Source: a virus
Direction: 5' to 3' (one strand)
Virus genome (UHGV): UHGV-1963645
DNA length: 64,000 bases
In this document: in pieces, positions 55,575 through 56,619 of the stretch
How the letters are laid out: each line of letters opens with the position of its first letter
How positions within the stretch are numbered: position 1 is the first letter of the stretch
Translations under genes and position numbers: made by a program
The notes under the pieces: generated by a model
The model's input: only the letters and a program-made list of their open reading frames with translations
Told to the model about the DNA's origin: nothing
Databases searched by the model: none

Positions 55575-56402
55575 TTATTTCACCGGAACAAACGGAACAG
55601 CGGTATTACTGGTCATATACTGCGGTAATGTACCGTTCCATTTGTTGATCGCTTCCAACTCCATAACACCGGGGTTCTGGCGCAGAGCTTCACCACGTAA
55701 ACGAATGGCATCAGCTTCGGCCTGGGCTTTTGTGCGAATAGCATCAGCCTGTCCGGCAGCTTCCGCGCGCAGCATGTTGGCCTCTGCTTCACGTTGTTTG
55801 ACCTCTTGCTCGCGTTGCAGGGTTTTTTGGTTTGCCGTGACTTTGGCGTTAATACTGTCAATAACTGTTGGCGGGTATTCTGGCTTACCTACATAAGAGA
55901 GGCTCATCACCTGAATGCCGATTGGCGTCATTTCTTCCTGAATGTCTTTAAGGGCTGCATCAAGCAATTCGGATTTGCCACCGTCGATAAATTTGTCGGT
56001 TGTCATTTTGCTGGCTAACCGGTTCAGAGCATCTGCAACCTTCTGGCGTAGATCGGTATCAGTAATATCATCTACACCTTTGCGATAGGTCTGAAATACC
56101 GTTGTGACTTTTGCTGGATCAACCTTGTAGGCTACGCCGATGTGGTAACCAATGGTTGTTCCGTCGCTCATCTGGAAGCTGAACGGCTCATCGTATGTCT
56201 TCATTTGCTTAAAGGTCGGGAAGATATAAACTTCAGTATTCAAGCCTGTCCAGTAGCGACCAACGCCAACTACTTCACCGATACCTTTATCATCCCCCAG
56301 CTTATTTACTTTGATCCCTACGTTACCTGGCTCTACCCGATCGCATCCGGTCAGACATAAAGAACCCAAAATAATCGCTGCACTAATCAACGTTTTTTTC
56401 AT
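55575..56402 (-). CDS. SPFH/band-7 (stomatin/prohibitin-like) lipoprotein
   Basis: 275 aa; signal peptide with lipobox LTGC; coiled-coil Ala/Glu-rich C-terminus. Confidence 0.8.
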   Translation of the reverse strand: MKKTLISAAIILGSLCLTGCDRVEPGNVGIKVNKLGDDKGIGEVVGVGRYWTGLNTEVYIFPTFKQMKTYDEPFSFQMSDGTTIGYHIGVAYKVDPAKVTTVFQTYRKGVDDITDTDLRQKVADALNRLASKMTTDKFIDGGKSELLDAALKDIQEEMTPIGIQVMSLSYVGKPEYPPTVIDSINAKVTANQKTLQREQEVKQREAEANMLRAEAAGQADAIRTKAQAEADAIRLRGEALRQNPGVMELEAINKWNGTLPQYMTSNTAVPFVPVK

Positions 56403-56619
56403 TAATTAATTTCCTGGTTTTTTCACGAAAAAAGACTACTGCGAAAGCTGGGTAAATGAGCGCGAGAAGGACTCCCAACAATACAAGTATTGTGCTGTTA
56501 GATGAGATCATATTTGGCAAAAGCCAAACATACAGAACCAGTGACACAATCAAACAGAGGACGGCATAAATATATAACCGCACCCATAGCGTTCGACATT
56601 TGTTCGGATTGTTCTGCAT
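56383..56619 (-). CDS. small two-helix membrane protein upstream of SPFH gene
   Basis: 78 aa, two hydrophobic helices, GGAG SD, overlaps SPFH start by 20 nt. Confidence 0.55.
   Translation of the reverse strand: MQNNPNKCRTLWVRLYIYAVLCLIVSLVLYVWLLPNMISSNSTILVLLGVLLALIYPAFAVVFFREKTRKLINEKNVD

What the first reader, a model, noticed from the sequence alone, without database searches (positions are those of the whole stretch)
55575..56619. SPFH lipoprotein plus small membrane protein between tRNA-Ile and the tRNA pair
A 275-aa lipoprotein (lipobox LTGC) with an SPFH/band-7 fold and a coiled-coil tail is preceded by an overlapping 78-aa two-helix membrane protein. Such pairs form membrane microdomain scaffolds and have been linked to stress and phage-exclusion phenotypes. 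Here the pair is embedded in the C1-controlled tRNA-to-ban block. Whether it corresponds to the P1 lipoprotein gene of this region or replaces the P1 tci genes cannot be told from memory.
Basis: partly seen in the sequence, partly recalled or inferred. Interest (0 to 1): 0.5.

Follow-up and report, generated by a model that had tools for sequence, protein, structure and literature searches.

The report
Phage SPFH lipoprotein with hairpin partner
This P1-like phage-plasmid carries, in place of phage P1's tciABC genes, a common but functionally unstudied two-gene phage module. One gene encodes a lipid-anchored SPFH (stomatin/HflK-like) scaffold protein predicted to face the periplasm, and the other a tiny two-helix membrane partner. 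The sequence is ordinary and already annotated in databases; only its function is open.

Summary
56402..55575(-) encodes a 275-aa lipoprotein (lipobox LTGC, Asp at +2) with a Band_7/SPFH domain (Pfam 1e-30), a 65-residue helix and a conserved C-terminal KWNGxLP motif. 56619..56383(-) encodes a 78-aa two-helix membrane protein that overlaps it by 20 nt.

The pair is not P1 plp. It replaces tciABC as a clean cassette (about 55557-56652). upl and plp remain on the other strand. The same cassette is in RCS47 (99.4% over 55400-57750), in 188 of 589 matching PLSDB plasmids and in 192 of 5426 complete E. coli genomes, so it is not rare.

The pair is a conserved phage module. The hairpin gene sits just upstream of the SPFH gene in 186 of 196 viral contigs. 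It lies inside C1-, cI- or C-repressed (or replication/recombination) operons of temperate phages, and it also occurs in virulent phages. No defence-system model matches, and I found no functional study.

Best reading: an HflK/C-like cage on the periplasmic face of the inner membrane, built with the hairpin early in lytic growth. The architecture is well supported. The physiological role is inferred: envelope protection or exclusion. Rival roles are FtsH modulation and lysis timing. The 'serine protease' annotation has no support.

The parts
56383..56619 (-). 78-aa two-helix (hairpin) inner-membrane protein of family phrog_1130. Predicted N-in/C-in, with a periplasmic loop motif P35-x-[LM]-[IV]-[SN]-x-x-[DS]-[TS].
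   Evidence: ORF. phrog_1130 at 6.4e-16. Hydropathy. Loop motif over 98 unique homologues: P 100%, L/M 100%, I/V 98%. pN/pS 0.29-0.47.
55575..56402 (-). 275-aa SPFH/Band 7 lipoprotein of family phrog_200.
   Evidence: Pfam Band_7 at 9.7e-31. phrog_200 at 2.3e-113. AF2 model. Foldseek against PDB. pN/pS about 0.03.
56343..56402 (-). Signal peptide and lipobox (residues 1-20, L-T-G-C20). The next residue is Asp21 (the +2 position), the classical inner-membrane retention signal.
   Evidence: Read from the sequence. Of 110 homologues with a readable lipobox, +2 is Asp in 101, Tyr in 7, Trp in 1 and Glu in 1.
55677..55871 (-). Long helix (residues 178-242), the coiled-coil segment that forms the cage wall in solved SPFH assemblies.
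   Evidence: AF2 secondary structure. It aligns with the equivalent helices of HflK/C, prohibitin and erlin.
55623..55643 (-). C-terminal motif K-W-N-G-T-L-P (residues 254-260). W255, G257 and P260 are invariant from enterobacterial phages to Staphylococcus and Bacteroides phages.
   Evidence: Alignment A2.
55557..56652 (-). The swapped cassette: sequence unrelated to P1, bounded by near-identical flanks. P1 has tciA-tciB-tciC here.
   Evidence: Three-way alignment of the window, P1 and RCS47. P1 annotation.
55472..55547 (-). tRNA with CAT anticodon (P1 trnI, tRNA-Ile2), immediately downstream of the cassette.
57548..57700 (-). tRNA-Thr(TGT) and tRNA-Asn(GTT) pair upstream.
58355..58382 (.). 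Bivalent C1 operator Oban, which overlaps the Pban promoter region at the 3' end of dmt. It is the repressor-controlled start of the operon that contains the cassette.
   Evidence: Perfect match at 58366-58382(-) and a 2-mismatch match at 58355-58371(+). Same position as Obanab in the P1 record.
53822..55192 (-). ban (DnaB-type replicative helicase), downstream in the same operon.
   Evidence: ORF. P1 and RCS47 annotation.
56812..57423 (+). Regions annotated as upl and plp in RCS47 and P1. They are retained here and are not part of the module. They overlap four structured repeats on the - strand, so their protein-coding status is doubtful.

Best explanation
The two genes form one co-translated phage accessory module.

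Proposed mechanism:
- The 275-aa protein is exported and lipid-modified at Cys20.
- Asp at +2 keeps it on the outer leaflet of the inner membrane, so its SPFH domain faces the periplasm. This is the orientation of HflK/C.
- Like every full-length SPFH protein solved so far, it is expected to oligomerise through its long helix into a closed ring or cage over a patch of membrane.
- It has no transmembrane helix of its own. The 78-aa hairpin is proposed to supply the membrane-spanning part, or to be the enclosed resident, docking through its conserved periplasmic loop. It is made in step with the SPFH protein through the overlapping stop and start.

In this element the module is transcribed from the C1-repressed ban operon, so it is made early in lytic growth and not in the quiescent prophage.

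Its most likely role is to insulate or protect the inner membrane of the infected cell. Candidate threats are a second phage's DNA entry, pore-formers, or premature depolarisation. It is dispensable for plaque formation and interchangeable with the TerB-type tciABC cassette.

Shown: gene structure, fold, lipobox, pairing, cassette swap, operon context and distribution.
Inferred: inner-membrane retention, cage assembly and hairpin docking.
Speculative: the physiological role.
For: Identity and fold:
- Pfam Band_7 at 1e-30.
- AF2 plus Foldseek hits to erlin, prohibitin, HflK/C, stomatin, flotillin and QmcA cages over the whole chain.
- The best sequence match in the PDB is E. coli HflK.

Topology:
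- Lipobox with Asp at +2. In 109 of 110 homologues, +2 is Asp, Tyr or Trp.
- The hairpin has basic termini and a conserved loop.

Pairing:
- The hairpin-family ORF lies immediately upstream of, or overlapping, the SPFH gene in 79/80, 70/79 and 37/37 IMG/VR loci.
- The same arrangement is in P88, SSU5, Stx2 phages, EamP-S6, a Seunavirus (one ORF removed), phiE125 and QDWS595.
- PaP4, Kayvirus MbpV-MbpS and PhiSH19 have unrelated small membrane ORFs in that position.

Selection: pN/pS is 0.03 for the SPFH gene and 0.3-0.5 for the hairpin.

Timing:
- The Oban operator is upstream.
- The scan finds no sigma-70-like promoter in 55300-58500.
- In temperate relatives the pair sits in repressor-controlled or replication/recombination operons: between cI and xis-int in Stx2 phage, between cox and the replication gene in P88, and after the recombinase in SSU5.
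- It is present in virulent N4-like, rV5-like, LUZ24-like, FelixO1-like and Kayvirus phages.

Interchangeability:
- The slot holds either this cassette (188 of 589 matching plasmids) or, in most of the other rows sampled, TerB/DUF3927 genes.
- tciABC is a recognised variable region, lost in about half of P1-like elements (PMC9603915).
- It is non-essential by CRISPRi (PMC10695390).
Against: - No experiment on any member of this phage family was found, so the role is argued only from architecture and context.
- Cage assembly and hairpin docking were not computed, because no multimer prediction was available.
- The very high conservation of the mature SPFH protein across unrelated phages (79-93% identity between P1-like, Stx2, P2-like and SSU5 phages) fits a conserved host target at least as well as exclusion. 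From general knowledge, exclusion proteins usually evolve fast.
- PADLOC has no model for it.
- A dicF-like terminator hairpin lies between Pban and the tRNAs, so the strength of read-through into the cassette is not established here.
- The +2 rule was not checked against the residue at +3 (Arg).
Confidence: 0.45

Rival explanations
1. HflK/C mimic that retunes the host FtsH protease. The phage cage would enclose FtsH, or co-assemble with or displace HflK/C around it. That would change which membrane or regulatory proteins are degraded during infection.
For: - The only PDB sequences found by phmmer apart from a prohibitin fragment are E. coli HflK (E 1.8e-4).
- NCBIfam gives weak HflC and HflK hits.
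- The predicted periplasmic orientation is shared with HflK/C.
- The top structural matches (erlin, prohibitin, HflK/C) are, from general knowledge, the SPFH proteins that face away from the cytosol and partner with membrane proteolysis.
- Very strong purifying selection fits a conserved host target.
Against: - The similarity to HflK is weak (16-19% identity) and no better than to erlin or prohibitin.
- The NCBIfam scores are far below the equivalog cut-offs (24.7 against 134 bits).
- Relatives occur in Gram-positive phages and in haloarchaeal viruses.
- No FtsH-contact feature could be tested.
Confidence: 0.15
2. Lysis-timing device. The hairpin would be a holin-like or membrane-perturbing peptide, and the SPFH cage would confine or delay it.
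For: - The hairpin is small, has two helices, is N-in/C-in and has a basic C-terminus. From general knowledge, this is the layout of class II holins and pinholins.
- In Kayvirus the equivalent pair mbpV-mbpS lies between the endolysin lysK and the transglycosylase tgl, and MbpV was said to resemble holins (PMC7150955).
Against: - No holin family in Pfam matches at E up to 1.
- PHROGs files the hairpin under 'moron, auxiliary metabolic gene and host takeover', not lysis.
- In P1-like, Stx2, P2-like and SSU5 phages the pair sits among replication and recombination genes, away from the lysis cassettes.
Confidence: 0.12
3. Lysogenic-conversion or prophage-expressed factor. This would be either an abortive-infection or exclusion system working from the prophage state, or a surface or vesicle lipoprotein that affects host-animal interaction.
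For: - The family is common in prophages: 460 of 5426 E. coli genomes have a relative, 308 of the places being chromosomal.
- An HflK/C-like SPFH protein from a prophage island (PM0222) was reported as a virulence factor in Pasteurella multocida. It is released in outer-membrane vesicles and signals through TLR1/2 (PMC9872710).
Against: - The scan finds no promoter of its own, and the module lies downstream of a C1 operator.
- In temperate relatives it sits in operons normally shut off by the prophage repressor.
- It is present in many strictly virulent phages.
- No PADLOC match.
- Asp at +2 predicts inner-membrane retention, not surface exposure.
- Homology between PM0222 and this subfamily was not tested.
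Confidence: 0.1
4. Membrane-bound serine protease, as annotated in RCS47 and in the Stx2 phage records.
For: Only the database labels 'putative serine protease' and 'serine protease'.
Against: - Band_7 is the only Pfam domain above its cut-off.
- The whole chain is accounted for by the SPFH body, the long helix and a short tail.
- No protease fold appears among the structural matches.
- From general knowledge, the label probably comes from the old name 'membrane protease subunit, stomatin/prohibitin homologue'.
Confidence: 0.01

Closest known systems
E. coli HflK/HflC (FtsH-modulating SPFH cage)
   Same: - SPFH body followed by a long helix and a short C-terminal segment.
- Domain on the periplasmic side of the inner membrane.
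- Best sequence match among solved structures and a full-length structural match.
   Different: - A lipid anchor instead of an N-terminal transmembrane helix.
- One SPFH gene rather than a K/C pair.
- 275 aa against 419 (HflK) and 334 (HflC, from general knowledge).
- Scores far below the HflK and HflC equivalog cut-offs.
- No evidence of FtsH binding.
- Phage-borne and expressed with a separate hairpin protein.
SPFH-NfeD operons (for example E. coli QmcA-YbbJ, PDB 8z5g)
   Same: A two-gene operon of an SPFH scaffold and a small membrane partner. QmcA is a structural match (rank 33).
   Different: - The partner has no NfeD domain (no Pfam hit at E up to 1). It is only a 60-80-aa hairpin.
- From general knowledge, QmcA faces the cytoplasm. 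This protein has a signal peptide and a lipobox.
Kayvirus MbpV-MbpS (Staphylococcus phage K, G1, MSA6)
   Same: - A phage SPFH protein (24% identical, same C-terminal W-x-G-x-x-P motif) directly preceded by a small membrane protein.
- Function likewise unknown (PMC7150955).
   Different: - MbpS has an uncleaved N-terminal transmembrane anchor instead of a lipobox.
- MbpV has one helix plus a charged tail and is not in the hairpin family.
- The pair lies near lysis genes.
P1 tciA-tciB-tciC (TerB-like, DUF3927 and a 35-aa ORF)
   Same: - Occupies exactly the same slot between the conserved leader and trnI in the ban operon.
- Also a combination of small ORFs (tciB, tciC) with a larger protein (tciA) of unproven function.
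- Non-essential.
   Different: No sequence relationship. TciA carries a TerB domain and TciB is DUF3927. hhalign of the hairpin family against TciB gives probability 0.3%.
P1 Plp ('putative lipoprotein')
   Same: Lies in the same trnT-to-trnI interval.
   Different: - A different gene, on the opposite strand. It is retained here at 57004-57423.
- The start MRHISLCIHHNVENTGC has no hydrophobic signal peptide.
- Its frame is not conserved between P1 and this element, because of a 196-nt repeat-mediated deletion.

Membership tests
SPFH / Band 7 superfamily | Band_7 domain above Pfam's gathering score | tested here: met
   PF01145 at E 9.7e-31, 107.6 bits against a cut-off of 23.6, residues 22-208.
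SPFH / Band 7 superfamily | SPFH alpha/beta body followed by a long coiled-coil helix, as in solved full-length members | tested here: met
   AF2 model with pLDDT 76. Foldseek probability 1.0 to erlin, prohibitin, HflK/C, stomatin and flotillin over 250-300 aligned columns.
SPFH / Band 7 superfamily | Assembly into a large ring or cage on a membrane | not testable with these tools
   Only single-chain prediction was available. Assembly is inferred from homologues.
HflK/HflC (FtsH modulators) | Score above the NCBIfam equivalog cut-off | tested here: not met
   hflC 24.7 bits against 134.4. hflK 23.3 bits against 159.4.
HflK/HflC (FtsH modulators) | N-terminal transmembrane anchor with the SPFH domain in the periplasm | tested here: inconclusive
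   Periplasmic orientation is predicted from the signal peptide. The anchor is a lipobox Cys, not a transmembrane helix.
HflK/HflC (FtsH modulators) | Binds and encloses FtsH | not testable with these tools
   No computation is available. It needs co-purification.
SPFH-NfeD operon | Partner protein carries an NfeD (PF01957) domain | tested here: not met
   No NfeD hit for the 78-aa protein at E up to 1.
Bacterial lipoprotein (inner-membrane retained) | Signal peptide with lipobox [LVI][ASTVI][GAS]C, and a Lol-avoidance residue at +2 | tested here: met
   The protein has L-T-G-C20 followed by Asp. In homologues, +2 is Asp in 101 of 110, Tyr in 7 and Trp in 1. The sorting rule is from the literature, recalled from memory. 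Actual localisation was not tested.
Phage module phrog_200 + phrog_1130 | Hairpin ORF immediately upstream of the SPFH lipoprotein gene | tested here: met
   PHROG hits at 2.3e-113 and 6.4e-16. Adjacency in 186 of 196 viral loci.
P1 plp (lipoprotein gene of this interval) | Same locus, strand and sequence as P1 or RCS47 plp | tested here: not met
   plp maps to 57004-57423 on the + strand. The SPFH gene lies where tciABC lie in P1.
Known anti-phage defence systems (PADLOC-DB 2.0) | Match to any defence-protein model | tested here: not met
   No hit for the SPFH protein. For the hairpin, only PDC-M18B at E 0.023.
Holins (class II / pinholin) | Small protein with two transmembrane helices and a basic C-terminus, a match to a holin family, and a position in a lysis cassette | tested here: inconclusive
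   The topology fits. No holin family matches, and the gene is not in a lysis cassette.
Serine protease (database label) | A protease domain or catalytic motif | tested here: not met
   Band_7 is the only domain above its cut-off. No protease fold appears among the matches.

The most novel reading that the evidence does not exclude
The SPFH lipoprotein and its hairpin are the enterobacterial form of a very widespread, uncharacterised viral membrane-compartment system. tblastn relatives are in 795 of 50,697 phage records, and structural relatives extend to giant viruses. Under this reading the system builds cages on the outer face of the cytoplasmic membrane early in infection. The cages would shield the infected cell against membrane-targeting host immunity, colicins or competing phages. 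That would be a new class of phage counter-defence or exclusion, and P1-like elements swap it against the TerB cassette.
Probability: 0.25. Interest if true: 0.7.

Novelty: new variant of a known kind. Interest (0 to 1): 0.38.

Why it matters
As a sequence this is routine. [quoted passage not shown]

It matters for three reasons.
- It settles the annotation: the pair is not plp, not a protease, and it replaces tciABC.
- SPFH proteins are among the most widespread phage accessory proteins without a function. This analysis gives a concrete testable model: a periplasm-facing, lipid-anchored cage with an obligatory hairpin partner, made early in infection.
- P1 offers a tractable genetic system with natural isogenic alleles (SPFH pair against tciABC) in which to test the model.

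Tried and rejected
- **Identity with P1 plp:** rejected by alignment.
- **Serine protease:** rejected, no such domain or fold.
- **Known defence system:** no PADLOC match.
- **NfeD partner, holin family or a superinfection-immunity family for the hairpin:** no Pfam hit at E up to 1 and nothing in the PDB.
- **Homology between the hairpin and P1 TciB:** rejected (hhalign probability 0.3%).
- **An own promoter for the cassette:** none found by the consensus scan.
- **Literature:** nine full-text searches found no functional study of the family. Neither the P1-like element diversity paper (PMC6906374) nor the paper that defines the tciABC variable region (PMC9603915) mentions SPFH.
- **A profile search meant to deepen the alignment:** it returned mostly the same close relatives, so the structure model rests on a shallow alignment (67-92% identity).
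- **PhiSH19:** its SPFH gene lies downstream of a gene labelled 'superinfection exclusion protein'. That gene is a soluble GP17-family protein, separated from the SPFH gene by an unannotated two-helix ORF. I did not count it as evidence for exclusion.
- **The natural fusion protein P0001:** it could have been folded, but the tool returns no contacts, so I did not use it.
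Full report
**What is there.**
The window is a P1-like phage-plasmid. Region 55400-57750 is 99.4% identical to phage RCS47 and 97.6-97.7% identical to the P1 reference records over the parts they share.

On the - strand the order is as follows:
- dmt, 60637..58373
- the bivalent C1 operator Oban, 58355-58382
- a dicF-like terminator hairpin, 58192..58173
- tRNA-Asn, then tRNA-Thr
- about 900 nt without a long - strand ORF
- a 78-aa ORF, 56619..56383
- a 275-aa ORF, 56402..55575
- tRNA(CAT), 55547..55472
- ban and dbn

The two ORFs overlap by 20 nt and each has a Shine-Dalgarno sequence.

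**The large protein.**
- It begins with a signal peptide and the lipobox L-T-G-C20, followed by Asp.
- It carries a Band_7/SPFH domain (Pfam E 9.7e-31).
- It belongs to phrog_200 'lipoprotein' (2.3e-113).
- An AlphaFold2 model (pLDDT 76) shows a beta-rich SPFH body (19-175), one 65-residue helix (178-242) and a low-confidence tail.
- Foldseek against the PDB returns, at probability 1.0 and over nearly the whole chain, the cage-forming SPFH proteins. Erlin1/2, prohibitin and HflK/C come first, then stomatin, flotillin, QmcA-YbbJ and major vault protein.
- By sequence, the only solved relatives are E. coli HflK (E 1.8e-4) and a prohibitin-2 fragment.
- NCBIfam HflC and HflK scores are far below the equivalog cut-offs. 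It is therefore an SPFH protein but not an HflK or HflC orthologue.
- Nothing supports the 'serine protease' label used in RCS47 and the Stx2 phage records.

**The small protein.**
- It has two hydrophobic helices, basic termini and a short loop.
- It matches phrog_1130 'membrane protein' (6.4e-16).
- It has no NfeD, holin or superinfection-immunity family hit at E up to 1 and no solved relative.
- A search of 1.84 billion cluster representatives found only ten relatives. That is expected for a short, fast-evolving membrane peptide.

**Is it P1's plp, or does it replace tci?**
A three-way alignment of the window, P1 and RCS47 answers this.
- Identity with P1 runs from dmt through both tRNAs and the upl/plp region down to window position 56653.
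- It is then lost, and it resumes at 55556, a few bases before trnI.
- Between those points P1 has tciA, tciB and tciC (TerB domain, DUF3927 and a 35-aa ORF). The window and RCS47 have the hairpin and SPFH genes.
- upl (56812-57003) and plp (57004-57423) are retained on the opposite strand.

So the pair replaces tciABC as a clean cassette of about 1.1 kb. Its GC content is 45%, against 49% for the whole window.

**How common is the cassette?**
- Of 589 PLSDB plasmids matching the 55400-56900 query, 188 carry the SPFH cassette. Most of the other rows sampled carry TerB/DUF3927 genes in the slot.
- 192 of 5426 complete E. coli genomes carry the full cassette, nearly all on plasmids of about 95 kb. 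460 genomes have some relative, mostly in chromosomal prophages at about 86% nucleotide identity and restricted to the part encoding the mature SPFH protein.
- tciABC has been described as one of eight highly variable regions of P1-like phage-plasmids, lost in about half of them. That paper does not name what replaces it (PMC9603915).
- tciA, tciB, tciC, plp and upl were all scored non-essential in a CRISPRi screen of P1 (PMC10695390).

**The pair is a conserved phage module.**
tblastn finds relatives of the SPFH protein in 795 of 50,697 phage records. They range from enterobacterial temperate phages to:
- virulent N4-like, rV5-like, LUZ24-like and FelixO1-like phages;
- Staphylococcus and Enterococcus myoviruses;
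- crAss-like and Lak phages;
- haloarchaeal viruses.

Among twelve inspected genomes, eight have a hairpin-family ORF just upstream: the window, P88, EamP-S6, an Stx2 phage, SSU5, a Seunavirus, QDWS595 and phiE125. In the Seunavirus one ORF intervenes. In the Stx2 record the hairpin ORF is unannotated. The other four split as follows: Kayvirus (MbpV) and PaP4 have a different one-helix protein upstream, while SB18 and the crAss-like phage have no membrane ORF directly upstream. PhiSH19 has a different, unannotated two-helix ORF that overlaps the SPFH start.

I built an HMM of the hairpin family and scanned the 600-700 nt upstream of SPFH genes in IMG/VR contigs. It scored in 79 of 80, 70 of 79 and 37 of 37 loci. 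The hairpin stop usually overlaps the SPFH start by 4 nt or, as here, by 20 nt.

Over 98 unique hairpins the loop between the helices keeps P35 (100%), L/M37 (100%), I/V38 (98%), S/N39 and D/S42-T/S43, while the helices vary.

The mature SPFH protein is far better conserved than its partner. It is 91-93% identical in Stx2 phage and P88, where the hairpins are only 32-46% identical. Pooled pN/pS is about 0.03 for the SPFH gene and 0.29-0.47 for the hairpin. Both are real genes, and the SPFH protein is under unusually strong constraint.

**Topology.**
Among 110 close homologues with a readable lipobox, the residue after the lipidated Cys is Asp in 101, Tyr in 7, Trp in 1 and Glu in 1. From the literature on lipoprotein sorting in E. 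coli (recalled, not checked here), Asp, Tyr and Trp at +2 act as inner-membrane retention signals.

Together with the inner-membrane hairpin partner, this places the SPFH domain on the periplasmic face of the inner membrane. That is the orientation of HflK/C, and by analogy of prohibitin and erlin, rather than of the cytoplasm-facing QmcA, YqiK and flotillins. The Gram-positive homologue MbpS has an uncleaved N-terminal helix instead, which would likewise put the domain outside.

**Expression context.**
- The simple scan finds no sigma-70-like promoter on either strand in 55300-58500, against 3.4 expected.
- The nearest upstream control element is the C1 operator pair that, in the P1 record, controls ban.
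- In the Stx2 phage the pair lies between the cI region and xis-int.
- In P88 it lies between cox and the replication gene.
- In SSU5 it lies after ssb, an exonuclease and a recombinase.
- In the virulent phages it lies among small genes and nucleotide-metabolism genes.

The consistent picture is a gene pair expressed with the replication and recombination genes during lytic growth, not a prophage-expressed moron.

**Most likely mechanism.**
Well supported:
- An exported, lipid-anchored SPFH protein.
- A co-translated hairpin partner.
- Expression from a repressor-controlled lytic operon.

Inferred from homologues:
- Assembly of the SPFH protein into a closed cage over a patch of inner membrane.
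- The hairpin supplying the membrane-spanning palisade that this lipoprotein lacks, or being the enclosed resident, docked through its conserved loop.

Speculative: the purpose. I favour protection or insulation of the infected cell's inner membrane, meaning exclusion of secondary DNA entry, or resistance to pore-formers and premature depolarisation. The reasons are:
- the module is early, non-essential and shared by temperate and virulent phages;
- it acts at the surface that incoming phage DNA and colicins must cross;
- it is exchanged against a TerB-type cassette, whose family has been implicated in tellurite resistance and phage inhibition (PMC9603915) and is annotated for colicin resistance in the P1 record.

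Rivals are listed with their tests: an FtsH-retuning HflK/C mimic, a lysis-timing device with a holin-like hairpin, and a prophage-expressed defence or virulence lipoprotein. The strong conservation of the SPFH protein is a real argument for a conserved host partner, and so for the FtsH-type rival.

**Novelty.**
The sequence is common and already annotated, and the variable region is described. Within the searchable literature I found no description of three things:
- the obligatory hairpin partner;
- the periplasmic, lipid-anchored topology;
- any function.

A 2026 paper states that the reason this gene is in a phage genome 'remains unclear' (PMC13239085). I rate it a new variant of a known kind (an SPFH scaffold with a membrane partner), of moderate interest.

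**Side observations.**
The interval annotated as upl/plp carries four copies of a long hairpin on the transcribed - strand.
- Fold z-scores are -5.1 to -6.4, and 0 of 200 shuffles fold as well.
- The copies share their end sequences, and one copy has arm changes that keep the pairing.
- P1 lacks one copy (window 57276-57471). That shifts the plp reading frame.
- The P7 record annotates no upl or plp.
- The stretch just upstream of the cassette (56653-56773) gives a sub-threshold match to the prophage sRNA family STnc100 (32.7 bits against 47). A 2026 preprint groups that family with PasD.

These observations suggest RNA elements rather than the annotated proteins. I did not pursue this further.

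Noticed in passing
window 56762-57546 (- strand); annotated upl 56812-57003 and plp 57004-57423 on the + strand: There are four copies of a long hairpin with shared ends (CACAACAGGUAAGrGCAUUCUCC ... AGUGCUCUUACCGUUGUGAUGAAUGC) on the transcribed strand of the ban operon. RNA fold z-scores are -5.1 to -6.4, and one copy keeps its stem through changes on both arms. P1 lacks one copy (window 57276-57471 is absent), which changes the plp frame. The P7 record annotates no upl or plp. The 'Plp' N-terminus has no signal peptide. upl and plp may be structured RNA repeats rather than proteins.
   Followed up: partly
window 56653-56773 (- strand): A sub-threshold Rfam match to the prophage sRNA family STnc100 (32.7 bits, gathering score 47, E 1.7e-5 in a 441-nt search). 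It ends exactly at the upstream breakpoint of the cassette. The element is conserved in P1, so it belongs to the backbone, not to the cassette.
   Followed up: partly
window 56383-56402 (overlap of the two ORFs, run of seven A): The overlap contains GAAAAAAAC. One database protein (P0001, 347 aa, 8 member sequences) is a fusion of hairpin and SPFH that corresponds to the loss of one A. Locus L035 has a hairpin with a different C-terminus from the same point. This is either a homopolymer sequencing error or a mutational hot spot. The SPFH frame is +1 relative to the hairpin frame, so classical -1 slippage would not produce the fusion.
   Followed up: partly
proteins P0072, P0073, P0078, P0079 (mostly Klebsiella pneumoniae homologues): The lipidated Cys of the lipobox is replaced by Trp, Tyr or Phe (single-base changes of TGC) in four otherwise intact 275-aa homologues. 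These could be inactivated or unanchored variants.
   Followed up: no
window 57626-57700 (tRNA-Asn): This tRNA-Asn allele differs from that of P1 and RCS47 at seven positions, including a paired A-T to G-C change in the anticodon stem. It is 75 nt like the copy in phage Ro157c2YLVW. That phage also has a tRNA-Tyr between Asn and Thr. P7 and D6 have a tRNA-Ser(TGA) in the upl/plp interval.
   Followed up: partly
window 58173-58192 (- strand): A strong terminator-like hairpin (GC-rich stem followed by a run of seven T) lies between Pban/Oban and the tRNA genes. It falls within the stretch that corresponds to P1's annotated dicF-like region. Transcription of the tRNAs, the cassette and ban from Pban must read through it, or else start elsewhere.
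   Followed up: no
L003 2816-3004 (Stx2a phage EH1846); L220 2432-2650 (Salmonella phage PhiSH19): The small membrane ORF upstream of the SPFH gene is unannotated in these records. In the RefSeq E. coli and PLSDB plasmid rows listed, the only feature named under the cassette is the SPFH protein. The PhiSH19 ORF has two helices but a strongly basic loop, so it is probably a different, oppositely oriented partner.
   Followed up: partly
window 1-64000: There are 17 matches (up to 3 mismatches) to the C1 operator consensus ATTGCTCTAATAAATTT across the window, against 0.3 expected. This is consistent with an intact P1-type immunity circuit.
   Followed up: no
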